Of a DNA stretch of 64,000 nucleotides, positions 5,405 to 42,261 are shown in pieces. Both the position numbers and the translations under genes were made by a program. The DNA lies in the NCBI GenBank assembly GCA_029261835.1, contig JAJDAO010000072.1, forward strand, positions 74,841 through 138,840, given 5' to 3'. Numbering within the stretch: position 1 is the first letter of the stretch; every line of letters begins with the position of its first letter. This DNA comes from Deltaproteobacteria bacterium (GTDB lineage Bacteria > Myxococcota_A > UBA9160 > UBA4427). The notes beneath the pieces are model-generated. The model searched no databases. It was given only the letters and a program-made list of their open reading frames with translations, and was not told where the DNA came from.

Positions 5405-7093
5405 CTACTCCTGCAAGTAGATCCTGATGTACCGCTCCATCTCGGAGGTCGGTCGCCACCACTTCGCGATGGCCATGTCCTCGGCCACTTTGTTCGCCCC
5501 CAGGTAGCCTGGGCCACCCAGGACCAGCCCGCCGGGATAGGTGGAGGCCCCGCAAACGTACAGGCCTTCGATCGGAGTGTCGGTGCCGGAGCAGTCTTGG
5601 TTGGGTCGGAAGCAGCCCATCTGAAGCGGGCCGTAGTCGCCGTGCTTGATGGCACCACGCCGCATCTGCGGAAAGCGGATCTCGATCTCTTCGGGGTCCT
5701 CCATGCCGATCGAGACGATCTTGTCGTGCGTCAGATTCGGGGCCGCTTTCTGCCAGCGCGACAGCATCGCCTCCTGGACCTCCTTCCTGCGGTCCAGCCA
5801 GCCGCCCTCGATGCCGTATGGAGCGTGGATCTGGAACATCGAGACGTACTTTCCGGGCCGGTCGCTCAGCGTGGGATCGAGCAAGCTCTCGCAGGTCGAG
5901 TGGCCTCCGAAGCTCGTGAGGTCGAGTCGGCCGGCCGCCACGTTGTCCCAGTGCGAGATCAGCTGATCGACGCTCTCTATCCCGATCACCGTGGCGAAGG
6001 CCTCATCGATCCACGGATCGTCACAGGCGTACTTCGGCGGCTCATCGGCGGCGATATGCAGCGTATTGAAGCTCCACTTGTCCCAGGCCCATCCCTCTAC
6101 ATCTCCCAAGATGGAGTCCGGAAGATGCTCCCGGCCCACGAGGTCGAGGAAGGTGGTGTGGGGATCCAAGGTGGACATCACCGCCTTGGCGCGCAGCACG
6201 CGCCCCTCGTGGGCCAGCTGCACGCCGACGGCGCGGCCGTTCTGCATGATGATCTTGTCGACCCCGGCCGCCTCCAGGATCAATCCGCCGTGCTTGACGA
6301 CCTCGCGCGCCAGGGCGCTGCCGAATTTGTGCGAGCCACCGTAGCAGTAACACTTGTTCACTGTTCGATCGAGCATCAACGGCACCATGAAGCCCAGGCC
6401 CGTCTCGTGCGGATCGAGTCCCCACATGCAGCTCGCGTAGAGCATCATCGTGCGGACCTTCTCGTGCTCGAAGGTGTTCGTGATGATCTCGAACGGGCTG
6501 TACTCGCCGAGCTCCAACATCTCGCGACCGAGCTCGGTCCTCTCCATCGCCATCGTGATCTCGATTGGTGCCATCGGCGGTACGTAGGTGGCTGGAGCCA
6601 CGATCTCGTCGACGATCTTCCGCCACTTCCGGATCACCGAGCCGAAGGTGATCGCATCCTTGAACGAGTACTTGCTGATCGAGTCCTTCGTGTCCTGCAC
6701 CATGCGGCTCATCAGGATGGAGGAACCATCCTCGAACACCATGCCGGTCTGGGCGTTCGGCTTGATCCACGTCAGCGCCGGACCGTCGAGATCGAAGTCA
6801 CGAATCGCCGGCATGTAGTCGACCATCATGTGATAGAGGACGTGCGGATTAGAGGCGTAGCAGGGATACAGATTCTCCTCTGTCGCCAGACCGCCGCCCA
6901 CCTCGAAGCGACGCTCGCAGACCGCCACGCTGAGCCCTGCCTTGGCGAGGTAGGCCGCCGCGATCAATCCGTTCGGGCCGGCGCCGATGATGACGACGTC
7001 GAACTCGCTCTCCTGCGGGAACTCTTCCTGCATGTGGCCGAATAGGTCGCTGGGATCGTACTTGAACTTCGACTCGTAGCTGAAATTCGACAT
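5405..7093 (-). CDS. NAD(P)/FAD-dependent oxidoreductase, phytoene-desaturase (CrtI/COG1233) family, paralogue 1
   Basis: 562 aa. Dinucleotide-binding motif [31 protein letters not shown]; C-terminal [25 protein letters not shown]. Confidence 0.9.
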
Positions 7094-7138
7094 GCTTTGC
7101 TCGCTTCCTCTGCGGCGACCTGCGGGCCGCTGCGCTGT

Positions 7139-8860
7139 TCAGGGGCGCCTGGCTGAGATCTTGCCTTCTTGCGGGATGTAGTACGGCGACGCGTACCACC
7201 ACTTGCCGGGCTCCGCGATTCCGTCTTCGATCAGGATGTGCATCAGGTTGTACGGAATGGCCATCAGGCAGAGTCCACCGGGATGGCCCGATGTCTGATG
7301 CGCGTGATACAGACCTTCGATCGGCGTGCGATAGCGGGCCAGCTCGGGCAGCGGCCGATTGGTCCAGAGCTGATCCTCATCGTGTCGGCTGCCGCACCAT
7401 GTGCCCCCGATGAGTCCGGTATTGCGAAACTCGATATCGCGACCCGTCGCGCTCCAATGGTGGATGAGGTTGTCGTCGTCGAGACCGTCCACCATCTGGC
7501 TGTAGGATTCGCGCATGAATCGGTCCATCTCGTCCTTGTGCCGATCGAGCGCGTCCTCGCCCTCCGTGTGGTAGTCCGGAGACGTCACGGCCATCTCGAA
7601 GGCATTCGAGATGTAGCCCCTTGGATAGCTGGCCTGGCAGTCCGTCGGGTCGAACGACTGTGGCGGTGTCTGGAACCAGAGTGCGCGCTCGGGCGGCACC
7701 GTCGGTTGCCCCTTGCGACCGTCCACGTCCCTCACGTTCTCGTAGTAGATCTCGCGAGAGTCGCACGGGTAGATGCCGAGGCCCGGCTGGCGGTTCTCGC
7801 CGACGTAGCGCGCCTCGCCGAGTTCCCGGAACCTCTCTTTGTACGTGAGCTGCTTCTTCGTGTGGAAGACCGATACGTAGAGTGTCTGATTCTTCAGGCT
7901 GATGTCCTTGATCGTGCGAATCAGGGCGGGGTCCAGGTGCTTCGGGCCGACCATCTTGAGGAATGCCTGATGTACATCGCAGGCGGCAATCACGGCCTTG
8001 TTGGCCCGAATCGTCTTGCCTCCCGCGGCCGCCGTCTCGCGCAGTCGCACCCCCACCGCGCGGCCGTCCTCGATCAGGATTTCGTCGACCGGGCAGCTCG
8101 TTCGGATCACGGCCCCGCGGTGCACGGCGGCGCGGTGAATGGCGTGGAAGTAGCCGTGCAAACCGCCCCGCGGAATGCTGTTCTTGCCGGTATTGGGCAG
8201 CGTCAGAAGCTGAACACAGAGTGCCGCCGGGATCGCCACACCCTCCCAGTGGCCGGCCGCTCCCGAAGCCCAAGCCGCAAAGGCCATGCCGGTCTTGAAC
8301 GGCTCGGTCTCGAGGTGTTCGTCCATCAGGTCGAACATCGTCATCTCGCGCAGCTCCGGCGTCCAGATGTCGGGCTGATGCTTCTTGTAGACCTGCATGT
8401 ACGGCGTGTTCTCATCCGTCACCTCGACGTCGGACGGATGCGGCGGACACCAGAACGTGGCGCGCAACAGCTCACGGGTGAACGGCGGCTGGCCCAGCAT
8501 TCCACCGATCTTGGCCCAGCCGAGCTTGTCCGCGTCCGAAATCGCACGCCAACCATCCGTGCACGCCAGACCTGCATTGGCGGCCTCCATCGGATTCGTC
8601 GGTTCCCACTCCATGCGGAAGCCGTACTTGTGGAGCTCGAGCTGCTCGAAACCCGGAGCCGCTGAGGCGTACATCAGCATGGCGTGCGGATAGATCCGCA
8701 CGCCGGGTATCGGTTCCTGGGTCTCGCAGGCGCCACCGCACTCGGTTCTCTCCTCGAGAACACAGACACTGAGCCCGCACTTGGCCAAGTAGGCGGCCGT
8801 CGTCATTCCGTTCGGACCCGCGCCCACGATGACGATGTCGAATCTCTCGTCCTTACCCAT
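7139..8860 (-). CDS. NAD(P)/FAD-dependent oxidoreductase, COG1233 family, paralogue 2
   Basis: 573 aa. DIVIVGAGPNGMTTAAYLAKCGLSVCVLEER; C-terminal YRTPIEGLYHAHQTSGHPGG. Confidence 0.9.
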   Translation of the reverse strand: MGKDERFDIVIVGAGPNGMTTAAYLAKCGLSVCVLEERTECGGACETQEPIPGVRIYPHAMLMYASAAPGFEQLELHKYGFRMEWEPTNPMEAANAGLACTDGWRAISDADKLGWAKIGGMLGQPPFTRELLRATFWCPPHPSDVEVTDENTPYMQVYKKHQPDIWTPELREMTMFDLMDEHLETEPFKTGMAFAAWASGAAGHWEGVAIPAALCVQLLTLPNTGKNSIPRGGLHGYFHAIHRAAVHRGAVIRTSCPVDEILIEDGRAVGVRLRETAAAGGKTIRANKAVIAACDVHQAFLKMVGPKHLDPALIRTIKDISLKNQTLYVSVFHTKKQLTYKERFRELGEARYVGENRQPGLGIYPCDSREIYYENVRDVDGRKGQPTVPPERALWFQTPPQSFDPTDCQASYPRGYISNAFEMAVTSPDYHTEGEDALDRHKDEMDRFMRESYSQMVDGLDDDNLIHHWSATGRDIEFRNTGLIGGTWCGSRHDEDQLWTNRPLPELARYRTPIEGLYHAHQTSGHPGGLCLMAIPYNLMHILIEDGIAEPGKWWYASPYYIPQEGKISARRP

Positions 8861-8928
8861 GGCTCTTCCTCCAATCTCTCAACCGAACGCGTACGGACCG
8901 TGCGCAGGCGGAGCCGATAACAAAAGCA

Positions 8929-10557
8929 TCAGATGTATCCTTCCTCACGCGCCGCTGTCACGTAGTCGAGCTCCTGCCACCACTTCTCGATTCCGAAGTC
9001 CTCAGCGATGGCGTTGGAGCAGTTGTATCCCGGTCCGAAGAGCACCATCCCACCCGGGGCCACACTCGCCCCTCCGAGGTACAACCCCTGAATCGGGGTC
9101 CGATAGTGGGAGCACTCGTCATTGGGCCTGAGGTACCCCATCTGAAGTGGTTGATAAGCGCCCTGCTTGTAGCTGCCCCGTACCATGTTGGCGAACTTGT
9201 TCTGGATATCAGCCGGCGTGGTGAGATAGGTCCACAGCACGTTGTCGGCGGACAGATTCGGCACGTACTGCCGCAGCAACGCGAGCCGTTGCTCGCTGAT
9301 CTCTTCGCGCGTCTCATGCGCGAGCCAGCGCTCGCTTCCTCCGTCGGCCAGATCGAACGGCGCCATCTGTGAGAGGAGCCCCGTGGCGCGACCCACGGGT
9401 GCCTGGAAGGAGTCATGGACGCTGGGGAAGCAGGCGTTGAAGCCGACATCGGCGGCAAGCCGGCCTTCTCTCATCGCCCCCCAGTGATCGAGCAGATCGC
9501 CGAGGCTCTCGTAGCCCATCAGATAGATGAAAGCTCGGTCGACTTCGGGCTCACTCTCGGCGGCGGCGAAGTGCGGAGGTTCGGCGAGTGCCAGATGGAG
9601 GTTGCAGAGGCTCCACTCCTCCCATTCCCAAGTGCGAAGACCCTCGACGAAGTCCCGCTCGAGGTTCTCCTCTCCAACGTAGGCGAGGAATGTCTGGTGC
9701 AGATCGATCGTGCTCACCACGGCCTTCTCGGCCGACAGGTGAGTGCCGTCCTGCATCTCCACCCCGCAAGCCCGTCCCCGCTCGACGACGATCCGCCGAA
9801 TCTCGGCTCCCGTTCGGATCTGCCCCCCGTGCTCGAAGATGCACTTGAGCAGTGCGTTCGAAACGCGGTGTGAGCCGCCGGCCGTGAGTCGGTAGTTCGC
9901 CATTCGATCCAGGTAGATGGGGACCATGTAGCTGACGCCCGACTGGTCGTGCTCGAGGCCCCAATGGCAGGCCATGTAGAGCATCAGCGTGCGAACATGA
10001 TCATCTTCGAACAGGTCGAAGACGATCTCCTGTGGTGTCTTCTCCGCGTACTCGGAGAGAGCGCGACCCAGCTCGGTTTCCTCTGCCCGAGCCGCCATCT
10101 CCAGAGCGCCCTCCATGGGAACGTAGGTCTGCGGAGCGAGAATGTGTCGCATCATGCGAGCGAAATCGTGCCGCATCTCGCGATAGCTCTCGGCGTCCCG
10201 CTTCGAGAAGCGCGCGATCGACTGGCACGACTTCTCGATGTCGCTGTGGATGCAGAGGCACCGCCCGTCTTTCAGCGGCATCGCAACTTGTGGCTCGGGC
10301 TGGATGTGCTTCACGCCGTAGCGGCTCTCCAACTCGAAGTCGCGGTAGACGGGCGCGTAGTCGACCATCATCTTGTAGATCGCGTGGGTGTTGTGATAGT
10401 ACTCGGGAAGCGTCACCTGCTCAGTCGCCAACCCCCCACCGGCTTCGAAACGCTTCTCGAGCAGCAAGACACGCTGCCCGGCACGGCTCAGGTACGCACC
10501 CGCCGCGAGCCCGTTGGGACCGCTACCGATGATGATGACATCGTAGCTCTGCGTCAT
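8929..10557 (-). CDS. NAD(P)/FAD-dependent oxidoreductase, COG1233 family, paralogue 3
   Basis: 542 aa. DVIIIGSGPNGLAAGAYLSRAGQRVLLLEKR; C-terminal YRTPIQGLYLGGASVAPGG. Its start overlaps the stop of paralogue 4 by 4 nt. Confidence 0.9.
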   Translation of the reverse strand: MTQSYDVIIIGSGPNGLAAGAYLSRAGQRVLLLEKRFEAGGGLATEQVTLPEYYHNTHAIYKMMVDYAPVYRDFELESRYGVKHIQPEPQVAMPLKDGRCLCIHSDIEKSCQSIARFSKRDAESYREMRHDFARMMRHILAPQTYVPMEGALEMAARAEETELGRALSEYAEKTPQEIVFDLFEDDHVRTLMLYMACHWGLEHDQSGVSYMVPIYLDRMANYRLTAGGSHRVSNALLKCIFEHGGQIRTGAEIRRIVVERGRACGVEMQDGTHLSAEKAVVSTIDLHQTFLAYVGEENLERDFVEGLRTWEWEEWSLCNLHLALAEPPHFAAAESEPEVDRAFIYLMGYESLGDLLDHWGAMREGRLAADVGFNACFPSVHDSFQAPVGRATGLLSQMAPFDLADGGSERWLAHETREEISEQRLALLRQYVPNLSADNVLWTYLTTPADIQNKFANMVRGSYKQGAYQPLQMGYLRPNDECSHYRTPIQGLYLGGASVAPGGMVLFGPGYNCSNAIAEDFGIEKWWQELDYVTAAREEGYI

Positions 10558-12281
10558 CGCCTGCCCTCCAGCAACGAGTCGCGCACGCGTCTGCGCACGA
10601 TCCTTTGCTGCTCGACAAGCGAGTCGGGCTCCTCTTTGCCGGGCTCCTCCCAGGGTTTGGCGAGCCCGAGGTCCTTGGCGATGATCTTGTAACAGTTATA
10701 TGCCTCGGTCGATCCGGCATTTGACCCCACGTGCCACGAGCCGCCGGTGGCGTAGAGCCGCTCGACGGGCGTGCGGTGGTTGGCCAGCTCCGGGGTGGGG
10801 CGATTCTCGGCGACCTGATGCGGCGGCCGGTCGACACCCGCCATGGTTCCGTTCGGTCCGAGGTTCTTCATGCGCGTGTGGTCGAAGGCGGTGTTGGTGT
10901 CGACGCCGATTACATTGTCCCATGTCATATTGGGCGCGTAGTCCTGCCAAATGGTGAGCAGCTCGTCCGCGTAGCGACGCTTGATTTCGAGCCACTGCCG
11001 CTCGCTATACGTCGTAGCTGGTGGACCAAGCTGCTCGTTCTGTACGACGTGCTTGCCCGGAGGCGCGAAGCTCGGGTCCACCAGACTGTGGCAGCCGACC
11101 GTGGGAGCGTAGTCCTCGAGCGGGGGGAACCTGCGAAGCTTCTGGTACAAGCACTCGCGGGAGATGTGGATCGGGTCGGGGTCGGGCTGCATGCCCAACC
11201 ACTGGCATTCGTGGATGTCCGGGTTGAAGGCCTCGGCCTTGTAGATCGGCGCCTGGTGGACAGCGAAGCTGTACCACATGAGACAGCCGAAGGTATCTTC
11301 CAGCAGTCGCACCCGCCTCTTCAACTGATCGCCGACGTGCTCCTCACCAATCAGATCGAATATGAGCTGGTGAGGTGAGAGCGTGCTCACGACCAGCTTT
11401 CGAGCTGCGATCTGGCTGCCGTCCGTCAACGTGATCCCGGTGGCGACACCGTTCTCGATGATCGCCTTGTCGACCTCGCTATTGGTGAAGAATTCGCACC
11501 CCATCTGCACCAGGAGCTGATGTGCAGCATGTGCGATCTGGTGGGTCCCGCCGCGGTTGAAGCCGATGGTGGGCAGAACCATGGCCATGCCCAGCAGACT
11601 CATGCCCAAGCCCGGCTCGTTGATGTCGATGACCGAGGAGACGGCGAACCGCAGGATGCAGGACTGAAGCTCTTGACTCTCGAACCACTCCCGCGAGGCG
11701 CGCAGCGTGCTCGCCTTCATCGTGAGGGAATCGGGGCCGAAGCCGGCTTCGATCAGCTTGGGGAACAGAGCGGCCTGTCGGGCGGCAACATCGGGTGTCG
11801 TCTGTTCTTCTACCGGGCGAAACAGCGTATCCGTGGTTACGCGCAACAGCTCTTCGCTCTGCGCGAGGTTCCAGAGGCGCCCCCAGGTGTCGGCGTCCCG
11901 CTGTGAGAAACGGGCGATCTCAGCGGCGGTTCTCTCCTGGGCGGGATCGTGCTTGCCACTGTAGATCGCCAGGCAGCTCTCGCTGTCCTTGAAGACGAAT
12001 CCGTCGCTGCAAGTGTGTTGCTCCCAGCGAGCACCGTAGTCCCAGAAATCGGGGAAATCGCGCCACACAGGCGCGTAGTACCAGGGCAGGATGATGTTGG
12101 CGTGCGTGTTGCCGCGAAACCCGGGCGCCGAGATTTCTTCCGTGGCGAGACAGCCCCCAATCTCGTGCCGCCGCTCGAATACGCCGACGCGCATTCCGCC
12201 GTATTTGACGAGGTACAGGGCGAGCAGGAGAGCCTTGTTCCCGCCGCCGACAATCACGGCATCGAACGTCTTGTCAGCCAT
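10554..12281 (-). CDS. NAD(P)/FAD-dependent oxidoreductase, COG1233 family, divergent paralogue 4
   Basis: ORF 10554..12749 trimmed to ATG 12281 (GAGGTG upstream). Begins MADKTFDAVIVGGGNKALLLALYLVKYGGMRVGVFERR; the 156 aa upstream are low-complexity. Confidence 0.85.
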   Translation of the reverse strand: MADKTFDAVIVGGGNKALLLALYLVKYGGMRVGVFERRHEIGGCLATEEISAPGFRGNTHANIILPWYYAPVWRDFPDFWDYGARWEQHTCSDGFVFKDSESCLAIYSGKHDPAQERTAAEIARFSQRDADTWGRLWNLAQSEELLRVTTDTLFRPVEEQTTPDVAARQAALFPKLIEAGFGPDSLTMKASTLRASREWFESQELQSCILRFAVSSVIDINEPGLGMSLLGMAMVLPTIGFNRGGTHQIAHAAHQLLVQMGCEFFTNSEVDKAIIENGVATGITLTDGSQIAARKLVVSTLSPHQLIFDLIGEEHVGDQLKRRVRLLEDTFGCLMWYSFAVHQAPIYKAEAFNPDIHECQWLGMQPDPDPIHISRECLYQKLRRFPPLEDYAPTVGCHSLVDPSFAPPGKHVVQNEQLGPPATTYSERQWLEIKRRYADELLTIWQDYAPNMTWDNVIGVDTNTAFDHTRMKNLGPNGTMAGVDRPPHQVAENRPTPELANHRTPVERLYATGGSWHVGSNAGSTEAYNCYKIIAKDLGLAKPWEEPGKEEPDSLVEQQRIVRRRVRDSLLEGRR

Positions 12282-12415
12282 TGCGACACCTCGCCCGGGC
12301 GGATTCGCAACCCGCCCGAGCCCGAGAGTCGAACCTGCGCGACCGTGGGACCCGTCGGCCGACAAGGAGCGCCCCGAGCTGGAGCGAAACCGACCGACAC
12401 CGCGATGGTAGCTGG

Positions 12416-12427
12416 CGAAAGCTTTCG
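12416..12427. promoter_or_regulatory. perfect 12-bp palindrome CGAAAGCTTTCG in the divergent intergenic region (candidate MarR operator)
   Basis: Read directly; lies between the COG1233 operon start (12281) and the MarR gene, next to a locally AT-rich stretch. Confidence 0.3.
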
Positions 12428-12537
12428 GGCAAGCTAAATTGTTGTTCTGTGGCTTTTTTCGCTGCCTCCAGCTAGGCGTCTGGGGGATCGGCGCAACCGG
12501 CCCGATCGGTGCGGTGCGTGGTAATGGTTGCGTGTTA

Positions 12538-13098
12538 ATGGTATTGACGATGGCGAAGCAGCAGCGCAGCTCGACGATGAGCCGGCCGGACGAGCCGGGG
12601 ATGGACTGGATCGACGAGCTCTCGGAAGCATGGGCTCGCGAGTACCCGGACGTCGACACCTCGACGCTGCCACCGATGCTGAGGCTGGTCCGACTGGGCG
12701 TGCTGATGACCACGTTCCAGCAGGAGACGCTCGAGCCCTTCCAACTCACACCGAGCGACTACGCCGTGCTATCGACACTGCGCCGCATGGGCCCGCCGTA
12801 CGAGCTCTCGCCGAGCGAGCTCTACACGGCACTCGAGCGATCCTCGGGCGGCATGACGAAGATGCTCAAGCGCCTCGAGCAGCTCGGCCTCGTGGAGCGC
12901 GCGCCCCACCCCGAAGATGGACGCGCCACGCTCGTCGCCCTCACGCCAGCAGGTGTCGAGCTGCAGGAGCAGATCTTCAAGGTCTTCCTGTCACATACGG
13001 AAGACCTCCTCAAGTCGATCTCACCCGCCAAGCTCCAGGAGATCGACGCCTCGCTGCGATCTCTGCTCGATGCGATCGAGAGCCACTTCTACCGATAG
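12538..13098 (+). CDS. MarR-family transcriptional regulator
   Basis: Winged-helix region LTPSDYAVLSTLRRMGPPYELSPSELYTALERSSGGMTKMLKRLEQLGLVERAPHPEDGRATLVALTPAG. Start ambiguous (ATG 12538, 12550 or 12577). Confidence 0.85.
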   Translation: MVLTMAKQQRSSTMSRPDEPGMDWIDELSEAWAREYPDVDTSTLPPMLRLVRLGVLMTTFQQETLEPFQLTPSDYAVLSTLRRMGPPYELSPSELYTALERSSGGMTKMLKRLEQLGLVERAPHPEDGRATLVALTPAGVELQEQIFKVFLSHTEDLLKSISPAKLQEIDASLRSLLDAIESHFYR

Positions 13099-15686: not shown

Positions 15687-16511
15687 TCAGCGAATGTCCA
15701 TTTGGCGCAGCAGCAAGGCATCGCGCAGTCGCATCGGAAGGAAGCGATTGAGGGCCATGAAGAACCGGCTCTTGGCATCGATCGCATTGTGGCGCTTCAG
15801 GTTGGGCGACTGAACCACCCGGACGATCTCGGCCGCCGCAGTCGTCGCGTCCGGAGCGGTCTGGATGAGTTCCTCATCGCGGGCGATGAAGCGGCGCACT
15901 CGCTCTCGATAGGGAGAGCCATCGGGCGGCAGAACATGAATCTTGGCGGCAAAGCCGGTCGAGACCTGGGCCGGCTGAATCAGCGCGACCTGAATGCCGA
16001 ATGGCTCCACCTCGTAGCGCAGCGAGAGCACCATCCCCTCGACCGCGAACTTGCTGGCCGAGTAGAGGGATTCGAAGGGAAACGGGATCTGCCCCACGAG
16101 CGAAGAGACGGCAATCAGCCTGCCCGAACGCCTCTCGCGCATGGCGGGGATGAACGCTTGCAGGATCGCCGCCGTGCCGAGGACGTTGATCTCCAGACAG
16201 CGCTTGGCACGCTCCAGATCGAGCTCCTCGAAAGGGCCAAAGAAGCCGATCCCGACGTTCGAGAGCACGACGTCCACATGGCCGTACTTTCGCAGTACTT
16301 CGTCTCGAAACCGCAGGATGCTCGGGCGGTCGCAGATATCGAGCGTGGACAGGAGTGGGTCACACCCAGCCGCCTCGAGCTCGCGCCTGAGCAGCTCGAC
16401 TCCGGCCTCATCGACATCGAAGCCCGCCACGGAGACTCCCATCGCGCCGAGCTTCAGTGCCACCTCGCGGCCCATCCCCTGGGCGAGGCCCGTGATCACG
16501 ACCACTCGCAT
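15687..16511 (-). CDS. SDR-family oxidoreductase
   Basis: 274 aa. VVVITGLAQGMGREVALKL; YSASK motif. ATG overlaps the stop of the upstream gene (TGATG). Confidence 0.85.
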   Translation of the reverse strand: MRVVVITGLAQGMGREVALKLGAMGVSVAGFDVDEAGVELLRRELEAAGCDPLLSTLDICDRPSILRFRDEVLRKYGHVDVVLSNVGIGFFGPFEELDLERAKRCLEINVLGTAAILQAFIPAMRERRSGRLIAVSSLVGQIPFPFESLYSASKFAVEGMVLSLRYEVEPFGIQVALIQPAQVSTGFAAKIHVLPPDGSPYRERVRRFIARDEELIQTAPDATTAAAEIVRVVQSPNLKRHNAIDAKSRFFMALNRFLPMRLRDALLLRQMDIR

Positions 16512-17515
16512 CAGACGCTCCTTCTCTGCAGTGGGTCCCGCCGCCCCAGCTCTCGCATCGATTCCGCGAAGTCGGGGTGGATGAGCCGATAGCCGGCCTG
16601 CTTCAGCTTTCGGTTGTCGACCACGTAGTCGGCGTGCAGGTAGCGCAGCGCGTCGTATTCGAGATCCGGAATCCGCCCGCGCAGTCGCGCCAACACGCCG
16701 TCGACCCGCGCGATCAGCGCGAGAAGCGACAGCGGAAGATGTACTCTCGGCCGTCGACCACCGAACGCATCTGCCGCCAAGACCAGAGCCTCCTCCAGCG
16801 TCGGGTGGCTGTCGTCGGCGACATTGAAGGCCTGGCCCCGTGCTTGCTCCCGCTGAGACAGATGGATGGCCGCGCCGGCTACGTCTTCGACTCGCACATT
16901 CGAGAGCCGCTGTCGGCCGTCTCCCGGAATGGCCGCCAGCGAGCTCCTGCGTGAGAAGACCTTCCCCGCCCCATCCGTGTGGCCCGGGCCGTAGATCGTG
17001 CAGGGGCGAAGGATGACGGCCGGGAGCCCGCTGCGAATCGCGCGCCAGACGACGTCCTCACCATCTCGCTTGCTTCGCCCGTAGGCGTCGGAGGGCTCGC
17101 GGGGGGCGTCCTCGTCGAGCGATCTGCCCCGGCAGGGTCCGTAGACGCTGGTCGAACCCATGTAGATGAAGCAGCGGACTCCGGCAGAAAGGGCGCGTTC
17201 GGTGATGCGCGCGACGCCAGCGACATTCACGGGCTGCAGCACCGAATCGGGGCTCGAGAAATTGCAGATCGCGCCCAGATGAAAGACCGACTCCACCCGG
17301 CCGGCGAACAGGGGCGGCAATGTCTCCGGCTTCCTGAGGTCTGCGCGTACGAACTCGATCTCACCCGCCTCGTGCCGCATCCGCAAATCGTCGGCATCTT
17401 CCCAGGCGGGCGCGGTGGCGCGAATCCGCCCCCCCCTGCTGACGAGCTGCTCGATCAAGTGACCACCGAGGAAGCCGGCAGCACCCGTCACCAGGCTGAT
17501 TCCGTCGCTACGCAT
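16511..17515 (-). CDS. NAD-dependent epimerase/dehydratase family protein
   Basis: ORF 16511..17671 trimmed to ATG 17515. MRSDGISLVTGAAGFLGGHLIEQLVSRG. ATG overlaps the upstream stop (TGATG). Confidence 0.8.
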   Translation of the reverse strand: MRSDGISLVTGAAGFLGGHLIEQLVSRGGRIRATAPAWEDADDLRMRHEAGEIEFVRADLRKPETLPPLFAGRVESVFHLGAICNFSSPDSVLQPVNVAGVARITERALSAGVRCFIYMGSTSVYGPCRGRSLDEDAPREPSDAYGRSKRDGEDVVWRAIRSGLPAVILRPCTIYGPGHTDGAGKVFSRRSSLAAIPGDGRQRLSNVRVEDVAGAAIHLSQREQARGQAFNVADDSHPTLEEALVLAADAFGGRRPRVHLPLSLLALIARVDGVLARLRGRIPDLEYDALRYLHADYVVDNRKLKQAGYRLIHPDFAESMRELGRRDPLQRRSV

Positions 17516-18597
17516 CACAAGCGGCAGAGCTCCGCCGCGAGCTCGACGCGACGGGTCTGGCTGAATCCGACGGCAAAGGTCGGGATCCAGCACGAGTGTT
17601 TGCCGGCACCCCCCGCCACGAGCACTCTCAACAGCGCCGCTTCGCGAGCCAACGGAATCCTGCCGCGCCACTCGTCGAGCTGGTCCGCATAGCCACCCCA
17701 GGATGTGAGCTCGTCGAGCTTCTGCGCCGAAATCCGATCCAGCGGAACACGGGCGTGCTCGAATAGGTAGCCTTGCACGTCTTCGCGCGAGAAGCCCGAA
17801 TCGGCTACTGCCCGAGCGTGCTCCGGACCAAAGACCACGAAATGGTCGCCGCCGACATAGAGGTTGTTGTTGCCGACCGTAGCCATCGTCTGTGCCAGTG
17901 TGTTCAAGATCGACTCCCCGTCACAGGAGCCATGGTCATTGATATTGTGTGGCCCCTCGGCGGCCGCCACGGTGACGCAGGAGTCCTCGACCCCGAAGCC
18001 GAGCGTGGTGCGCAGAGCGGGCCACGGGCTCGCCTCTTCGTTCTCCGCAAAGCAGAAACCGAACTTGGCCGGGCTCCCCTGGGTCGCCTTGTCGGTCTCG
18101 CCCGCAATCGCCCCTCCGATATTCTGGAGCACGAGTCGCAGAGCACGGCCGATGCTCGCATTGGCCCGGTTACCCGGACCCATGCAGCCATGCCCGGCGT
18201 TCATGGCCAGCAAATCGGCGACCGGTCCATGTACGATTGCCAGCAGGCCACATGGATGGGTCGTGGTCTGCATTCCGATCAGGTTGAAGTCTCGCTCCTG
18301 AATCGCAGCGATCGCCGCTTCCAGCAGCGGCATGTGCTCGGGCAGGCAGCCGGCCATGACGGCGTTGGCGGCGACGCGCTGAAGCGTGGCGGTGCCATTG
18401 CGCGGCGACAGGTCACCCAAGCTCTCCATCGGGTAGTGACTCGCACCGTCGCACATGTCCTTTACGCGCCCTCGCGTCGGGATCACCACCGGCAGACCAT
18501 CCGTAAAGCCCCAGGCGTGCAGTTGCTCCAGCGCAGCAACATCATCGCCGTCGAACTCGATCTGCTCGGCCAACGGCGCGTCGTCTCGCCGACTCAC
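17515..18597 (-). CDS. conserved hypothetical protein (360 aa), partner of the UGSC selenoprotein
   Basis: Long GC3-biased ORF. GTG start overlaps the UGSC gene stop (GTGA). I recognise no family. Confidence 0.7.
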   Translation of the reverse strand: MSRRDDAPLAEQIEFDGDDVAALEQLHAWGFTDGLPVVIPTRGRVKDMCDGASHYPMESLGDLSPRNGTATLQRVAANAVMAGCLPEHMPLLEAAIAAIQERDFNLIGMQTTTHPCGLLAIVHGPVADLLAMNAGHGCMGPGNRANASIGRALRLVLQNIGGAIAGETDKATQGSPAKFGFCFAENEEASPWPALRTTLGFGVEDSCVTVAAAEGPHNINDHGSCDGESILNTLAQTMATVGNNNLYVGGDHFVVFGPEHARAVADSGFSREDVQGYLFEHARVPLDRISAQKLDELTSWGGYADQLDEWRGRIPLAREAALLRVLVAGGAGKHSCWIPTFAVGFSQTRRVELAAELCRL

Positions 18598-19130
18598 GAT
18601 TCGCCCCCACTCGACAACGCCGCGATCACGTCTTCGAGCACCTTGTCTGAAATCAGCGCAGCCGCCTGCTCGGGCGATATCCCGCCGACCGGATGTCGCA
18701 CCACGGCCAGCGGCAAAGCGCCGGCGTTGCGCTGCTCAAGCAACTGGCTGGCGAAATCCTGAAACGCATCGGTCACGAGGCCCACCACCGCACATCCCAT
18801 TCGCGCGAGCTCGATCTGGTCGTGGATACTCCACGACGTGCACGATCCTCAATCGTAGGCAGCCAACACCACGGCGTGACATGACTCGCCGCACTGACGG
18901 ATGAGTTCGGGTGCGGCCTCCAGAGAGGGAACGTCCTTCCGAAAGTGGCTCACCGTAACCCCAAAGCGCTCTCTCAGCCCCGCCGCGACCCGTTCCAGGA
19001 GCACGTCCGCGTTGGGCTTGTTGTTGCTGAAGAGTCCGATCTTCGCCCCCGCCAGACTCGTGAGCCGTTCGCCGAGCGTCTCGGGCGGAGGCGGACCGCT
19101 CGTGGGGTTGACGATCACGATTCTGCCCAT
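18594..19130 (-). CDS. UGSC-family selenoprotein; in-frame TGA at 18851-18849 read as Sec
   Basis: Track ORFs 18849..19130 and 18594..18800 are in the same frame (51 nt = 17 codons from the TGA to the second ATG). Read-through gives ...HAVVLAAYD-U-GSCTSWSIHDQIELARMGCAVVG..., containing the family-defining UGSC motif. GGGAGA SD precedes ATG 19130. Confidence 0.75.
18819..18837 (-). promoter_or_regulatory. candidate bacterial SECIS hairpin for the UGSC gene
   Basis: mRNA GUCGUGG-AGUAU-CCACGAC, a perfect 7-bp stem with a 5-nt loop, starting 11 nt after the UGA. An outer GAUC/GAUC pairing is possible. Confidence 0.55.
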
Positions 19131-19249
19131 CTTGTCTCCCTGACACGCCCGGATCTCGACCCGGCAGGTGGCTGAACACCGCTTGACGGTCCGCGATGCG
19201 ATGGATAAGATACTACAGATTCCAAATAATTTCGAAACTGTATATTTCT

Positions 19250-19277
19250 CTTCCGGAGATCAGGCTTCCGGAGATCA
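19250..19277. repeat. two direct copies of CTTCCGGAGATCA at 15-bp period (candidate operator)
   Basis: 19250-19262 and 19265-19277, each containing the palindrome TCCGGA. Sits in the AT-rich divergent region between the selenoprotein operon and the MarR gene, just downstream of a TATATT box (19241-19246). Confidence 0.4.
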
Positions 19278-19303
19278 AGCGGGACAGGGGATCGAAGCTG
19301 ACC

Positions 19304-19750
19304 ATGGCGAAGCGGCGCTCGGGTGCAAACGATCGGCAGGGCAAGGCTCTGATGGGCCTGATCCATCGCGTCACGGCGACCCACTCTGAGCGGCCGACTC
19401 TGGGACTCAACGTCCGTCAGCGCCTCATCATTCAGAGGCTCGGGCTCGAGGGAGAGCTCCATATGGCGGCCCTCGGACAGCAGCTCGGACTGACGCCCTC
19501 GGCAATGACTGGGCTCGTGGACCGCCTGGTGGCACAGGGCTTCGTGAGCCGCCTGCCGCATCCAAGTGATCGCCGAGCCACTCTTGTCAGCCTGAGCCGC
19601 AAGGGCGAGACCGCTTTTCTGCGCGAGGTCGATTTCTACCGCGTGCTGGTGGACGAAACCCTGGCGGCGATGGGCGACGGTGCCAGGCGCCAGGTATTGG
19701 ACGCCCTGACCGAACTCGGGCGCAACGCAGCGGCCGTGGATGCCGCCTGA
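19304..19750 (+). CDS. MarR-family transcriptional regulator
   Basis: ORF 19196..19750 trimmed to ATG 19304. LHMAALGQQLGLTPSAMTGLVDRLVAQGFVSRLPHPSDRRATLVSLSRKG. Confidence 0.85.
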   Translation: MAKRRSGANDRQGKALMGLIHRVTATHSERPTLGLNVRQRLIIQRLGLEGELHMAALGQQLGLTPSAMTGLVDRLVAQGFVSRLPHPSDRRATLVSLSRKGETAFLREVDFYRVLVDETLAAMGDGARRQVLDALTELGRNAAAVDAA

Positions 19751-24987: not shown

Positions 24988-26082
24988 TCAGCACCCGGCG
25001 AGCGCGCGAACATCGCCGAGCAGCGCGCTGATGTCCTGGTCCGACGTGTCCCAGGAGCACATGAAGCGGGCGCCGCCAGCCCCGATGAACGTGTAGAAGA
25101 CCCAGCCACGTTCACGCAGTCCATCGAGAACGGGGCTCGGGAGCTTGGCGAAGACGGAGTTCGCCTGGGCGGGAGCCAGGATCTCCACCCCGGGCACGTC
25201 GCGCAGGCCCGACTCGAGCCGCTGCGCACAGGCGTTGGCGTGCTTCGCGTGTTGGAGCCAACCGCCGTTCTCGAGTAGAGCGACCCACGGTGCCGCAATG
25301 AAACGCATCTTCGAGGCGAGCTGCCCGGCCTGCTTACAGCGGTACGCAAAGTCCTGAGCCAGCTCGCGGTCGAAGAAGACGACCGCGTCGCCCACCGCCA
25401 TGCCATTCTTCGTACCGCCGAAGCACAGTACATCCACGCCCACCTTCCAGGTCAGCTCCTTGGGTGCGACGTCGAGAGTCGCGACGGCGTTGGCGAAGCG
25501 TGCACCGTCCATGTGCAGTCGCAGTCCGAGCTGGCGCGCCGTCTCGGCAACGGCGTCCAACTCGCTCTTGTCGTAGACGGTTCCCAACTCGGTGGCCTGG
25601 GTGATGCTCAATACGCGCGGCTTCGGGTAGTGGATGTCCGTTCGACGCAATACGGTGTTTCTCACGTCGGCGAGATCGACCTTGCCCCGCTCGCCAGCCG
25701 CGAGCAAGACCTTGGTGCCGTTCGAGAAGAACTCCGGCCCGCCACACTCGTCGGTCTCGAGATGCGCGGTCTGGTGGCAGATGATGCTGTGGTAGGACTC
25801 GCACAGAGCCGCCAGGCTGAGCGAGTTGGCGGCCGTGCCGTTGAATACGAAGAAGACCTCACAGTCGATCTCGAAGACCTCGCGCAGCAGCTCGCAGGCT
25901 CGCTGGGTCCAAGCGTCCTCGCCGTAGGCGGGAGCGAAGCCGCTCTTGGCCCTCTCGAGCGCGGCCCATGACTCCGGGCAGATTCCGGCTGCGTTATCGC
26001 TGGCAAACTGCAGCCGCTGGCGCTCCAGCGAGACCGCGGCGCCGGTCGTGGGGTCGCCCTGCTCACCCGCCTGGGCCGTCAT
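24988..26082 (-). CDS. ltaE: low-specificity L-threonine aldolase (PLP enzyme)
   Basis: ORF 24988..27105 trimmed to ATG 26082. FASDNAAGICPE, FNGTAANSL, CFGGTKNG (PLP lysine). Confidence 0.8.
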   Translation of the reverse strand: MTAQAGEQGDPTTGAAVSLERQRLQFASDNAAGICPESWAALERAKSGFAPAYGEDAWTQRACELLREVFEIDCEVFFVFNGTAANSLSLAALCESYHSIICHQTAHLETDECGGPEFFSNGTKVLLAAGERGKVDLADVRNTVLRRTDIHYPKPRVLSITQATELGTVYDKSELDAVAETARQLGLRLHMDGARFANAVATLDVAPKELTWKVGVDVLCFGGTKNGMAVGDAVVFFDRELAQDFAYRCKQAGQLASKMRFIAAPWVALLENGGWLQHAKHANACAQRLESGLRDVPGVEILAPAQANSVFAKLPSPVLDGLRERGWVFYTFIGAGGARFMCSWDTSDQDISALLGDVRALAGC

Positions 26083-26214
26083 GCAAGTCAGAGTACCGCA
26101 AACGACGAGGGTCTGCGGATCAGATGCAAAGGGCGGTCTTGTGTCTGGCGTGGGCCTCGAATAGTCTGAAGCGAGTGTCGCAATCGGCGTGGGAGCGAAG
26201 CCAGGAGAATAGAC

Positions 26215-27294
26215 GTGCCGCACATCCGCACCGTCCCGCCGAGTCGAGCCGATGCAGAAACAGCATCGACCTACCGCTACATGAAGGAGGTCGGGGGCTC
26301 CTCGCAGGCGGCGAACATCGTGCAACTCTTCAGCCTCCGCCCGGCGTCCATGCGACGGATGATCCGGAGCTGGGAGCTCGCACTCTGGTGCGGCCATGAG
26401 CCGCGATCGAACCGCGAGCTGATCGCGGCAGCCGTCTCTCGCTATGCAGATTGTCACTACTGAACGGATGGCCACGAGGCCTTCCTGCAGGCTGCAGGAG
26501 GAGACGCGAGCCGGGTTGCGCGCCTGATCGATGGCACGACGACCGACGCGACACCTCTCGAGCGAGCGCTGGTGGCACTCGCGAAGAAGGCCCACGAGCA
26601 GCCTCGCCACCTCACGCCGGCGGATCTCGATCCCCTGCGAGCGATCGTTGGAGCGGGCGCGCTCGACTACGCGTTCGTGCTCGGGTCGTTCCACTTCATC
26701 AACCGGATGGCCGATTTGCTCGACGTGAGCTCCGAGGCCCTCCCCGCACCCCTGCGGCGCCTCGAACTGGTCCGGAGGCTGGCAACCCGGCTGCAGGGCA
26801 TCCTGCTGCGCAAGATGATGAACCTCGAGAATCGCGCCTACGGCAGAAGCTACGAAGAGGTCGTCGCGGCCATCGCGCCGGCCTATCGAGAGGCGTTGGG
26901 GTGCGAGCCGGGGGAGGCGTTTGCGCGCCTGCGCGAGCGACCGCAGATCATCGAAGCGCTGCAGCTCATGCTGGAAGAGCGCTTGGAGAGAAGCAGCCTC
27001 CAGCACACCGTGATGGTGGACCTTCACCGCATCGTCGAAGAGGCACTGCCGAATAGGCCCGAGGACCTGGAGGGCTTCCACGAGCGCCCCGCCGATCCCG
27101 TTCACGCGCTTGCATTCGTCGGTACGCGCTATGCCAGCCGGACGACAAAGCAGATGATCGATGCCCTGCGTCTCGCGGGCTATGACGACCTCGGCATCCT
27201 CGACCTGGCCATTGCAATCGCGGACGCCAACAATTGGGCGCGGCTGCGCCGCCTTACAGGCCTTTCAGCGGGCATCGGTTGCGTCGCCGTGTGA
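26215..27294 (+). CDS. AhpD/carboxymuconolactone-decarboxylase-like selenoprotein; in-frame TGA at 26461-26463 read as Sec
   Basis: Track ORFs 26215..26463 and 26572..27294 are in the same frame (357 nt apart) with no other stop between. Read-through gives ELIAAAVSRYADCHY-U-TDGHEAF, which is E-x11-C-x2-U-x3-H, the AhpD core motif E-x11-CxxC-x3-H with Sec at the second Cys. AGGAG lies 7 nt before GTG 26215. Confidence 0.75.
26481..26501 (+). promoter_or_regulatory. candidate bacterial SECIS hairpin for the AhpD-like gene
   Basis: CUUCCUGC-AGGCU-GCAGGAGG, an 8-bp stem (one G.U pair) with a G-containing 5-nt loop, starting 17 nt after the UGA. Confidence 0.5.
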
Positions 27295-42076: not shown

Positions 42077-42261
42077 GCTCGATCCCCTTTCGAAACGCCA
42101 GCGTAGCAAGGCGCCCGCTCAGCACGCCGATGCAGCGCGGCTCGGCGCCCGCACGCTTTTCGCTTTACCCATCTTCGTAGAAGTGATAGGTAGTACATAT
42201 CACTTTTCCTTCCCGGATGCAGCGGGTACGAGGCAGTCCGGGCAACGGGCGGACGAGTCGG

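What the first reader, a model, noticed from the sequence alone, without database searches (positions are those of the whole stretch)
18594..19130. UGSC-family selenoprotein hidden as two ORFs split by an in-frame TGA
ORFs 18849..19130 and 18594..18800 share a frame. Reading TGA 18851-18849 as Sec gives a 178-aa protein with ...LAAYD-U-GSC-TSWSIHDQ..., the UGSC motif that names a selenoprotein family first reported from marine metagenomes. A perfect 7-bp hairpin with a 5-nt loop starts 11 nt after the UGA, the position expected for a bacterial SECIS. Taken together with the second case at 26461, the organism probably decodes Sec.
Basis: partly seen in the sequence, partly recalled or inferred. 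Interest (0 to 1): 0.6.

Follow-up and report, generated by a model that had tools for sequence, protein, structure and literature searches.

The report
UGSC selenoprotein gene with SECIS hairpin
The two small ORFs are one real gene for a selenocysteine-containing protein of the already described UGSC family, wrongly split by gene callers at its in-frame UGA; it is a well-supported but ordinary new member, and it turns out to be tied to a conserved partner gene of unknown function.

Summary
Observation confirmed and interpretation supported. Window 18594-19130 (- strand) is a single 178-codon frame with one in-frame TGA (18851-18849), giving ...LAAYD-U-GSC-TSWSIHDQ.... Pfam PF24696 (UGSC family) matches across the TGA (E 7e-35). 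All ten full-length homologues have Cys at that position. About 127 of the 150 best cluster representatives stop exactly there. All 67 species-level genome loci recovered carry TGA there, never TAA, TAG or a sense codon. The hairpin 18837-18819 meets the published bacterial SECIS rules: 7 bp stem, loop AGUAU, 18 nt from the UGA, -11.1 kcal/mol. It sits in the same register in 62 distinct sequences, with compensatory changes and frozen synonymous codons. A second Sec candidate (a CxxU AhpD/CMD-like gene, TGA 26461-26463) shows the same Cys/truncation pattern. No sel genes or tRNA-Sec lie in the window, and the rest of the genome could not be searched.

- The gene overlaps a 360-aa gene with no Pfam family. 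This partner is adjacent in every locus that has flanks, upstream in Dehalococcoidia, and fused in frame in at least 18 genomes.
- The AlphaFold model of a Cys-form UGSC homologue is flavodoxin-like, not thioredoxin-like.

Verdict: a new member of a known kind, of modest interest.

The parts
18594..19130 (-). Complete UGSC-family selenoprotein gene: ATG 19130-19128, Sec-UGA 18851-18849, true stop TGA 18596-18594; 178 aa with U94 and C97
   Evidence: Searches show one frame with one internal TGA. Pfam PF24696 matches residues 17-173 at E 6.9e-35. NCBIfam NF041046 scores 109.9 bits. Protein identity to relatives after the TGA is as high as before it.
18849..18851 (-). In-frame UGA read as selenocysteine (U of the U-G-S-C motif)
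   Evidence: Cys aligns here in all 10 full-length homologues. TGA is present in 67/67 genome loci and in L071-L073. About 127 of the 150 best cluster representatives end here.
18819..18837 (-). Bacterial SECIS-type hairpin: stem 18837-18831 / 18825-18819, apical loop AGUAU 18830-18826, loop starting 18 nt after the UGA
   Evidence: -11.1 kcal/mol. It fits the consensus rules quoted. In 62 distinct sequences, 93.8% of cells are paired against 79.8% in shuffles, and 4 pairs show double changes. Synonymous codons are frozen inside the hairpin and free outside it.
19136..19140 (-). Shine-Dalgarno-like GGGAG, 5 nt upstream of the ATG
   Evidence: Sequence read (..CAGGGAGACAAG ATG). Inference only.
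17515..18597 (-). Partner gene, 360 aa, with no Pfam or NCBIfam family; its GTG start overlaps the UGSC stop (GTGA). Invariant motifs are DGLP, NAVMAGC (C84), RANxxIGRA, DKxTxGxPxKxxFC (C182) and PW.
   Evidence: no family. More than 3495 homologues, all named hypothetical. It is adjacent on the same strand in every locus with flanks and fused in frame in at least 18 loci and in P0022 and P0241-3. The AF2 model has pLDDT 89 and no PDB relative.
16511..17515 (-). NAD-dependent epimerase/dehydratase (3-beta-HSD-like) gene, 334 aa; its start overlaps the partner's stop. It follows the pair only in close relatives.
   Evidence: Pfam PF01370 and PF01073. Gene calls on the identical Logan contig L070. 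Synteny in L003-L005, L007, L009 and L014.
15687..16511 (-). Short-chain dehydrogenase gene, 274 aa, the last gene of the apparent four-gene operon
   Evidence: Pfam PF00106. Its start overlaps the upstream stop in the L070 gene calls.
19196..19750 (+). Divergently oriented MarR-family regulator gene, a candidate local regulator, conserved only in close relatives
   Evidence: Pfam PF01047. A homologue sits on the opposite strand upstream of UGSC in 13 of the closer loci (L001, L003-L009, L011, L012, L014, L015).

Best explanation
Window 18594-19130 (- strand) is one gene for a 178-residue selenoprotein of the UGSC family. The ribosome reaches UGA 18851-18849. The hairpin 11 nt downstream (7-bp stem, loop A-G-U-A-U) acts as a bacterial SECIS: it recruits SelB-GTP-Sec-tRNA(Sec), so that selenocysteine is inserted instead of termination.

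The product is a small alpha/beta protein, flavodoxin-like in the model. The U-G-S-C motif sits at the end of strand 3 and the first turn of helix 3, which is the geometry of a redox-active selenol/thiol pair that cycles through a selenenylsulfide.

The protein most likely works together with the product of the overlapping downstream gene. That product is a 360-aa protein of an uncharacterised family with two invariant cysteines, and the UGSC protein would serve as its dedicated redox or nucleophile module. In other lineages the two are a single fused polypeptide.

Shown here:
- one frame across the TGA;
- family membership;
- the Cys/Sec alignment;
- universal TGA at the site;
- a conserved, covarying hairpin;
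- the linkage and fusion with the partner.

Inferred, not shown:
- SelB binding and actual Sec insertion in this organism;
- the redox role;
- physical interaction with the partner;
- the substrate.
For: Sec codon:
- One frame and one TGA.
- PF24696 matches across the TGA at E 6.9e-35.
- 275 cluster representatives were found. About 127 of the best 150 end within 2 residues of the site, and 10 run through it, all with D-C-G-[ST]-[CS].
- 67/67 genome loci from at least eight differently labelled lineages have TGA at the site. The loci were found with an N-terminal peptide pattern that is blind to that codon.
- The frame stays open after the TGA, and protein identity there equals or exceeds that before it, e.g. 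63/84 against 57/93 for L014.
- TGA is the ordinary stop of 26 of 40 window genes, including this gene's own stop, so the code is not reassigned.

SECIS:
- The published rules are a loop of 3-9 nt, a stem of 4-16 bp, G in the first two loop positions (N-G-[G/U]-N-N), 16-37 nt from the UGA to the loop, and MFE <= -7.5 kcal/mol (PMC13188914). The hairpin here has 5 nt, 7 bp, AGUAU, 18 nt and -11.1 kcal/mol.
- In 62 distinct sequences the loop G-U is invariant and 93.8% of cells are paired (79.8% in shuffles, 0/500 reach the observed value; slid registers give 29-50%).
- Pair 18-30 is GC in 40, CG in 21 and UA in 1. Pair 21-27 is GC in 38 and CG in 24. The outer pair changes GC->AU twice.
- Several of these changes are purely synonymous on both sides: TCT..CAA in L042, and ACA..GAT in L016 and L018.
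- Inside the hairpin, codons are frozen: TCG, AGT and CAC in 36/36 sequences. The Gly and Ser codons just upstream use all four third bases.

Sec use by this organism:
- A second gene, 26215-27294, has a TGA at the second Cys of C-x-x-C-x-x-x-H of an AhpD/CMD domain.
- Seven of the eight full-length homologues that show the motif have Cys there, and 110 of 120 hits are post-TGA fragments.

Partner:
- It is adjacent on the same strand in all loci with flanks.
- The gene order is inverted in Dehalococcoidia.
- It is fused in frame in at least 18 Sec-type loci and in the Cys-type proteins P0022 and P0241-3.
- The stop and start overlap in the window.

Fold:
- The AF2 model of the Cys form P0016 has pLDDT 93, with Cys95 immediately after strand 3 and Cys98 in helix 3.
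Against: - No selA, selB, selD or tRNA-Sec is present in the 64-kb window. The rest of the genome could not be examined, so Sec decoding in this particular organism is inferred, not shown.
- The single-sequence fold is not statistically unusual.
- The covariation comes from few independent events. Most of it is one split between the Dehalococcoidia clade and the rest, and the stem lies in the most conserved peptide of the family, so protein constraint contributes to its conservation.
- The NCBIfam equivalog model scores below its cut-off.
- The functional link to the partner rests only on gene order and fusion. One divergent member (L072) has no partner next to it.
- No experimental work on any family member was found in the papers searched.
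Confidence: 0.9

Rival explanations
1. The TGA is a genuine stop: either a pseudogene created by a nonsense mutation or sequencing error, or two separate small genes (a 93-aa N-terminal protein and a 68-aa protein re-initiated at ATG 18800).
For: Gene callers split it this way. The 93-aa product is on record as a separate protein from the same NCBI contig, and most homologues in protein collections are about 95-aa fragments. TGA is the commonest stop codon in the window.
Against: The same codon is TGA in 67/67 species-level genomes and is never TAA or TAG. A decaying pseudogene or an ordinary stop would not be held to one of the three stop codons. The 16 codons between the TGA and ATG 18800 (GSCTSWSIHDQIELAR) are the most conserved peptide of the family, yet they would be untranslated under this reading. 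Cys-form homologues read straight through.
Confidence: 0.02
2. The UGA is read through, but by a near-cognate or suppressor tRNA (Trp, Cys or Gly) rather than by the Sec machinery.
For: The Sec machinery was not found in the window. One homologue of the second candidate gene has Trp at the equivalent site (P0296).
Against: The downstream hairpin has the spacing, size and invariant loop G-U of SelB-dependent SECIS elements, and it shows compensatory and synonymous-codon constraint. The family is a curated '(seleno)protein' family (PMC2398784, PMC13188914). Two different genes in one window carry a TGA exactly at a redox Cys position.
Confidence: 0.04
3. The gene is a selenoprotein gene, but the hairpin is only a by-product of the conserved peptide T-S-W-S-[IV]-H-D, and the real SECIS lies elsewhere or is not needed.
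For: The stem coincides with the most conserved amino acids. Four of the seven pairs vary little or not at all, and most double changes trace to one clade split.
Against: Clades with a different peptide (T-S-C-C-M-Q-D; S-S-G-S-L-L-D; S-A-C-S-V-H-D) still form a stem in exactly the same register, with a loop N-G-U-N-N. Synonymous third positions inside the stem and loop are fixed (TCG, AGT and CAC in 36/36 sequences), while flanking codons drift. Double-synonymous compensations occur in L042, L016 and L018.
Confidence: 0.04

Closest known systems
UGSC-containing selenoprotein family (Pfam PF24696; NCBIfam NF041046; Zhang & Gladyshev 2007, PMC1976440; GOS analysis 2008, PMC2398784)
   Same: The U-G-S-C motif is at the same position. 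The Pfam match is far above the gathering score. Sec forms strongly outnumber Cys forms: 255 against 21 in GOS, and here about 127 against 10 cluster representatives and 67 against 0 genome loci. A fusion to an unnamed second domain was reported in GOS as 'Unknown_1'.
   Different: Nothing essential differs. This member comes from a 64% G+C MAG whose closest relatives are labelled Binatia or Myxococcota, not from a marine alphaproteobacterium. It scores below the NCBIfam equivalog cut-off. The family was said to have a 'likely Trx-like fold', which the model here does not support. Whether 'Unknown_1' is the partner described here could not be checked, because that figure is an image.
Bacterial SECIS consensus (bSECISearch model, as summarised in PMC13188914; prototype E. 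coli fdhF)
   Same: The hairpin lies in the coding region immediately 3' of the UGA. It has a 7-bp upper stem, a 5-nt apical loop with G-U at loop positions 2-3, and 18 nt between the UGA and the loop, and it folds at -11.1 kcal/mol.
   Different: No bulged U or lower stem was examined. SelB binding was not tested. The sequence is family-specific, as is usual for bSECIS elements.
UxxC selenoproteins of the Stickland reductases (PrdB, GrdB; Pfam PF07355)
   Same: They share the same Sec-x-x-Cys arrangement (GOS Table 2). Like them, UGSC is a small Sec subunit that works with (here: is genetically tied to) a larger catalytic partner protein. This is a working analogy only.
   Different: There is no detectable sequence relationship: PF07355 was not reported even at E <= 1, and the profile search against PDB sequences returned no significant match (best E about 1). 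The partner has no match to any Pfam family. Nothing here shows a pyruvoyl group or reductive cleavage chemistry.
Thioredoxin-fold CxxC/UxxC oxidoreductases
   Same: A redox dyad spaced by two residues sits at the N-terminus of a helix.
   Different: The model shows five beta-alpha units. Its best PDB matches are flavodoxins, B12-binding domains, lumazine synthase and receiver-like domains (TM 0.35-0.51), and there is no thioredoxin-fold protein among the 50 best.

Membership tests
UGSC family (Pfam PF24696) | Match to the family HMM above the gathering score | tested here: met
   121.1 bits against a cut-off of 25, E 6.9e-35, residues 17-173 of 178, profile positions 15-171 of 172.
UGSC family (NCBIfam NF041046, equivalog) | Score at or above the curated equivalog cut-off (125 bits) | tested here: not met
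   109.9 bits, E 1e-31, profile positions 2-146 of 147. The Cys forms P0016 and P0022 also fall short, at 92 and 99 bits. This clade is therefore more distant from the model's seed than an equivalog, although it is clearly homologous.
UGSC family | Sec (or Cys)-Gly-Ser-Cys motif at the conserved position after the third strand | tested here: met
   D-U-G-S-C in the window. The same motif occurs in 65 of 67 loci, with the variants UGAC (L068) and UGGC (L020).
Selenoprotein gene (general criteria) | In-frame TGA aligned with Cys in homologues, with conservation continuing downstream of the TGA | tested here: met
   Ten full-length homologues have Cys at the site. Post-TGA identity is as high as pre-TGA identity.
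Selenoprotein gene (general criteria) | selA, selB, selD and tRNA-Sec present in the same genome | not testable with these tools
   None lies in the 64-kb window. The 277-kb source contig and the rest of the MAG could not be fetched: one search returned only an 8-kb Logan contig.
Bacterial SECIS (bSECISearch consensus) | 3-9 nt apical loop on a 4-16 bp stem; G in the first two loop positions; 16-37 nt from the UGA to the loop; MFE <= -7.5 kcal/mol | tested here: met
   The hairpin here has the 5-nt loop AGUAU, a 7-bp stem, an 18-nt spacing and -11.1 kcal/mol. Hairpin MFE across the 58 aligned homologues is -8.0 to -11.1 kcal/mol.
Bacterial SECIS | Structure maintained in evolution (compensatory changes) | tested here: met
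   93.8% of cells are paired, four pairs show changes on both sides, and 0/500 shuffles reach the covariation score. The independent events are few.
Bacterial SECIS | Binds SelB and directs Sec insertion | not testable with these tools
   This needs an experiment.
Thioredoxin-like fold (as suggested for UGSC in PMC2398784) | Thioredoxin-type beta-alpha-beta-alpha-beta-beta-alpha topology, with structural matches to Trx-fold proteins | tested here: not met
   The AF2 model (pLDDT 93) shows a regular (beta-alpha)x5 arrangement. Foldseek's best PDB matches are flavodoxin-like folds, with none of the Trx fold. This rests on a model of a 44%-identical Cys form, not on a solved structure.

The most novel reading that the evidence does not exclude
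UGSC and its partner (window 17515-18597) form an obligate two-component selenoenzyme, fused into one chain in many lineages, whose chemistry has not been described. The large subunit has a fold with no solved relative and only two invariant cysteines (C84, C182). The small flavodoxin-like subunit supplies a Sec-x-x-Cys nucleophile and resolving pair, by analogy with PrdB and GrdB. The family keeps Sec almost exclusively (67/67 genomes), which suggests that selenium is chemically required rather than optional.
Probability: 0.4. Interest if true: 0.6.

Novelty: new member of a known kind. Interest (0 to 1): 0.3.

Why it matters
- Annotation. The gene is split or truncated in public gene calls: the 93-aa fragment is on record as a protein of the source contig. 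The same error affects most of the family. The window's organism should be treated as a Sec decoder with at least two selenoprotein genes.
- Biology. UGSC is among the most abundant predicted selenoprotein families in aquatic metagenomes (PMC2398784), yet it has no known function. Three results here narrow where to look and suggest a concrete experiment, co-expression and structure of the pair or of a natural fusion:
  - the near-universal linkage or fusion to one uncharacterised 360-aa family with no Pfam model and more than 3495 homologues;
  - the near-absence of Cys forms;
  - a fold that is not thioredoxin-like.
- None of this changes the classification of the finding itself, which is a routine new member.

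Tried and rejected
- Single-sequence folding as evidence for the SECIS. The z-score was only -0.77, so it was replaced by comparative analysis.
- Read-through protein as a query.
- Word-indexed search with the read-through protein. It found only two relatives.
- The search for related loci with the broad alignment A1. It had no sufficiently conserved stretch, and the narrower A2 worked.
- Sec machinery in the window. The tRNA scan, Rfam and Pfam scans of about 40 ORFs found none.
- Reaching the 277-kb source contig. The look-up returned only an 8-kb Logan copy.
- Partner identity. Pfam and NCBIfam gave nothing. PDB sequence searches with a single sequence and a profile gave nothing. Foldseek against the PDB gave only weak hits: class I fumarate hydratase at E 2.5e-3 and TM 0.24, and 'Toblerone' cyclic amide hydrolases at TM about 0.2.
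- An Fe-S hydro-lyase reading of the partner. It was dropped because only two Cys, and no third Cys or His, are invariant.
- Testing whether the GOS 'Unknown_1' domain equals the partner. The figure is held only as an image, and motif searches of the truncated sequence supplement found nothing relevant.
- A scan for further in-frame TGA candidates in the window. Only the two known sites were convincing; the others were antisense frames or adjacent genes that happen to share a frame.
- Other conserved neighbours of UGSC. All were clade-specific only.
Full report
**1. What is in the sequence**

On the - strand, 19130->18594 is one reading frame of 179 codons with a single internal stop, TGA at 18851-18849. 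The mechanical ORF list shows it as two same-frame ORFs, 18849..19130 (93 aa) and 18594..18800 (68 aa). Reading the TGA as Sec gives 178 residues with ...HAVVLAAYD-U-GSC-TSWSIHDQIELAR....

A GGGAG lies 5 nt before the ATG. Eleven nucleotides after the TGA comes a perfect hairpin: GTCGTGG (18837-18831), loop AGTAT (18830-18826) and CCACGAC (18825-18819). On its own the fold is not remarkable in this 64% G+C DNA (z = -0.77; composition), so the case has to be made comparatively.

**2. Family**

With Cys substituted for the stop, Pfam PF24696 'UGSC family' matches residues 17-173, straight across the TGA, at E 6.9e-35 (121 bits against a cut-off of 25). NCBIfam NF041046 'UGSC family (seleno)protein' matches at E 1e-31 but at 109.9 bits, under its equivalog cut-off of 125. 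Cys-form relatives also fall short. This clade is homologous to the model's seed but not especially close to it.

**3. Is the TGA a Sec codon?**

An exhaustive HMMER search with the 93-aa N-terminal ORF found 275 cluster representatives.
- Among the best 150, about 127 end within two residues of the aligned site, with tails such as ...GVGD or ...AVAD.
- The ten that run through all have Cys there (D-C-G-[ST]-[CS]), for example P0016, P0022, P0036 and P0124.

A scan of one genome per species used an N-terminal peptide pattern, [GA][FL][LF][SD]NNK[PM]N, which cannot see the codon in question. It returned 67 loci. Every one has TGA at the site, none has TAA, TAG or a sense codon, and the TGA is followed by G-[SAG]-C.

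The MAGs are labelled Binatia, Myxococcota, Thermodesulfobacteriota, 'delta proteobacterium', Dehalococcoidia/Chloroflexota, Actinomycetota, Pyrinomonadaceae, Lacipirellulaceae, Limnocylindrales and Desulfovirgula.

After the TGA the frame stays open. Protein identity to the window is as high as before the TGA, e.g. L014 at 63/84 after against 57/93 before.

In the window itself TGA is the usual stop: it ends 26 of 40 Pfam-supported genes, including this gene's own terminator. The recoding is therefore local, not a reassigned code. A pseudogene, a sequencing error or two separate genes cannot explain these facts.

**4. The hairpin as a SECIS**

A 2026 review summarises the bSECISearch consensus (PMC13188914):
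- an apical loop of 3-9 nt on a stem of 4-16 bp;
- at least one G in the first two loop positions, mostly N-G-[G/U]-N-N;
- 16-37 nt between the UGA and the loop;
- MFE <= -7.5 kcal/mol.

The window's element has a 5-nt loop A-G-U-A-U, 7 bp, an 18-nt spacing and -11.1 kcal/mol.

In an ungapped alignment of 62 distinct sequences starting at the TGA, the stem occupies the same columns everywhere and the loop G-U is invariant. 93.8% of cells are paired, against 79.8% in column shuffles (0/500 reach the observed value) and 29-50% in slid registers.

The individual pairs behave as follows:
- pair 18-30 is G-C in 40 sequences, C-G in 21 and U-A in 1;
- pair 21-27 is G-C in 38 and C-G in 24;
- pair 19-29 is U-A in 61 and G-U in 1;
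- the outer pair switches G-C to A-U twice.

Some compensations are synonymous on both sides: Ser TCT with Gln CAA in L042, and Thr ACA with Asp GAT in L016 and L018.

Codon use makes the same point. Among 36 distinct 'class A' sequences the hairpin codons are fixed (Ser TCG 36/36, Ser AGT 36/36, His CAC 36/36, and the Val/Ile third base always C). The Gly and Ser codons just upstream use all four third bases.

More divergent members with different peptides still fold in register, with loops AGUUU, AGUGU and GGUCU (L071: S-S-G-S-L-L-D; L072: S-A-C-S-V-H-D; L073).

Two caveats apply. The independent events are few, and the stem overlaps the family's most conserved peptide.

**5. Does the organism decode Sec?**

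No tRNA of any kind, no Rfam family and no selA, selB or selD domain is present in the window. The identical partner protein P0153 is on record from an NCBI contig of 277,184 bp. Only an 8-kb Logan copy (SRR15505514) could be fetched, so the machinery is untested.

Indirect support comes from the second candidate, 26215-27294 (+ strand).
- It is one frame with a TGA at 26461-26463, in R-Y-A-D-C-H-Y-U-T-D-G-H-E.
- Pfam CMD (PF02627) matches across the TGA, and there are weaker NCBIfam hits to peroxidase-related and AhpD-related '(seleno)protein' models.
- Seven of the eight full-length homologues that show the motif have C-x-x-C-T-D-[AG]-H-E, and one has Trp.
- 110 of the 120 listed hits are C-terminal fragments, and those examined start just after the site.
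- A 7-bp hairpin with loop GGC begins 22 nt after the TGA.

A scan for other in-frame TGAs flanked by coding-like sequence found no further convincing case.

**6.

The UGSC stop overlaps the GTG start (GTGA) of a 360-aa gene, 17515-18597. That gene matches no Pfam or NCBIfam family even at E <= 1. It has more than 3495 homologues, all named 'hypothetical', including Streptomyces and Nocardioides proteins.

A homologue lies next to UGSC on the same strand in every locus with enough flank. Three arrangements occur:
- partner downstream of UGSC, in the window's clade and others;
- partner upstream of UGSC, in about 27 Dehalococcoidia/Chloroflexota loci;
- the two fused in frame, where the post-TGA ORF is about 440-460 aa, in at least 18 loci (L016, L019, L021, L022, L024, L025, L027-L032, L034, L038-L041, L068). 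Cys-type fusions of about 570 aa also exist (P0022, P0241-3).

No other neighbour is shared across clades. The GOS paper mentions a 'UGSC/Unknown_1 fusion'. This is probably the same domain, but the figure is held only as an image.

One divergent UGSC gene (L072) has no partner beside it.

Across 46 sequences the partner keeps DGLP, NAVMAGC, RANxxIGRA, DKxTxGxPxKxxFCxxE and PW, with exactly two invariant cysteines, C84 and C182.

In the window and its close relatives the pair heads an apparent four-gene operon with overlapping stops and starts. The order is UGSC, partner, an NAD-dependent epimerase/3-beta-HSD-like protein (16511-17515) and a short-chain dehydrogenase (15687-16511). A divergent MarR gene and acyl-CoA dehydrogenase, GMC oxidoreductase and acyl-CoA synthetase genes lie on the other side.

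**7. Structure**

AlphaFold2 was run on the Cys form P0016, which is 44% identical to the window protein, with a 47-row alignment. The model has pLDDT 93 and pTM 0.87 and five regular beta-alpha units. Cys95 (equivalent to U94) sits immediately after strand 3, and Cys98 in the first turn of helix 3.

Foldseek against the PDB returns flavodoxins, flavodiiron flavodoxin domains, B12-binding domains, lumazine synthase and receiver-like domains (TM 0.35-0.51). No thioredoxin-fold protein appears in the top 50. The 'likely Trx-like fold' of the literature is therefore not supported, though this rests on a model.

The partner model is confident (pLDDT 89, pTM 0.90) but has no PDB match at E <= 1e-3. 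The best are class I fumarate hydratase (TM 0.24) and Toblerone-fold hydrolases (TM about 0.2). Profile searches of PDB sequences return no significant match for either protein (best E about 0.15-1.7).

**8. Mechanism**

- Shown: a single gene of the UGSC family; a TGA at a catalytic-type Cys position; a conserved, covarying hairpin at SECIS distance; obligate genetic linkage or fusion with one partner family.
- Inferred from established knowledge of bacterial Sec insertion: SelB-GTP-Sec-tRNA(Sec) binds the hairpin loop while the UGA is in the A site and inserts Sec.
- Inferred from the motif geometry: U94 and C97 form a reversible selenenylsulfide.
- Hypothesis: the UGSC domain is the dedicated redox or nucleophile module of the partner enzyme, whose two invariant cysteines are candidates for the relay. 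The U-x-x-C arrangement and small-subunit/large-subunit organisation recall PrdB and GrdB, but no homology is detectable.

**9. Comparison and verdict**

This is a member of a family listed since 2007-2008 (PMC1976440, PMC2398784), curated in Pfam and NCBIfam, and included in reviews up to 2026 (PMC9312934, PMC13188914).

The finding is correct, and its main use is to correct an annotation. I class it as a new member of a known kind, with modest interest.

The more interesting residue is the UGSC-partner module, which is Sec-dependent almost without exception and has no solved relative. Those facts make a long-uncharacterised, abundant selenoprotein family experimentally approachable.

Noticed in passing
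window 26215-27294 (+), TGA 26461-26463: A second selenoprotein candidate: an AhpD/CMD-like protein with C-H-Y-U-T-D-G-H. Seven of the eight full-length homologues that show the motif have Cys at the site, and most database hits are post-TGA fragments. A 7-bp hairpin with loop GGC starts 22 nt after the UGA. The long antisense ORF 24988-27105 is real only in its 3' part, the Beta_elim_lyase domain from about 26010 downwards.
   Followed up: partly
P0296 (homologue of the 26215-27294 protein): One full-length homologue has Trp (C-R-Y-W-T-D-A-H-E) where the others have Cys or Sec. Either a TGG sits one base away from TGA, or a UGA was translated as Trp by the source's gene caller.
   Followed up: no
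window 39272-42109 (-) and 49569-52448 (-): Two paralogous type II DMSO-reductase-family alpha subunits. Their best named NCBIfam match is ethylbenzene dehydrogenase EbdA (about 650-830 bits, far below the equivalog cut-off). A MerR-type regulator lies beside the second one (48743-49534).
   Followed up: no
window 52917-57940 (-): A cluster suggesting an anaerobic lifestyle: two 2-hydroxyacyl-CoA dehydratase/benzoyl-CoA reductase-type HGD-D subunits, a BcrAD/BadFG ATPase, a CdhC-like protein and a ParA/NifH-like ATPase.
   Followed up: no
window 5405-12749 (-) and 42217-45557 (+): Six paralogous FAD-dependent amine-oxidase/phytoene-desaturase-like genes in two tandem groups. Genes 7139-8860 and 5405-7093 happen to share a frame across a TGA, which produced a false positive in the in-frame TGA scan.
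   Followed up: no
window 19131-19195; L001 about 9600-9658; L002 about 60-189: The short A+T-richer spacer between the divergent MarR gene and UGSC contains GTAGTAT in the window and in two relatives (ctGTAGTATct, tcGTAGTATcg, ccGTAGTATat). This could be a -10 element or a MarR operator.
   Followed up: no
L072 (ERZ26167216 contig, UGSC at 2501-3094): A divergent UGSC selenoprotein gene (D-U-G-S-C-S-A-C-S-V-H-D) has no partner gene within 2.5 kb. Its neighbours are a Zn-ribbon protein, a PLP enzyme and a methyltransferase. The UGSC-partner linkage is therefore not absolute across the whole family.
   Followed up: partly
L001/L008 (contig CAVSWU010000002.1, 4.79 Mb): In this long-read MAG several genes around the UGSC locus are broken into pieces (acyl-CoA dehydrogenase, acyl-CoA synthetase, GMC oxidoreductase, and the UGSC C-terminus run into the partner). 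This pattern is typical of frameshift errors, so ORF lengths from such assemblies (also L023, L026, L035, L036) should not be over-read.
   Followed up: no
L020 3001-3459 and L068 3001-3486: Motif variants U-G-G-C (L020) and U-G-A-C (L068) show that the Ser of 'UGSC' is not invariant. The Sec, Gly and second Cys are.
   Followed up: no
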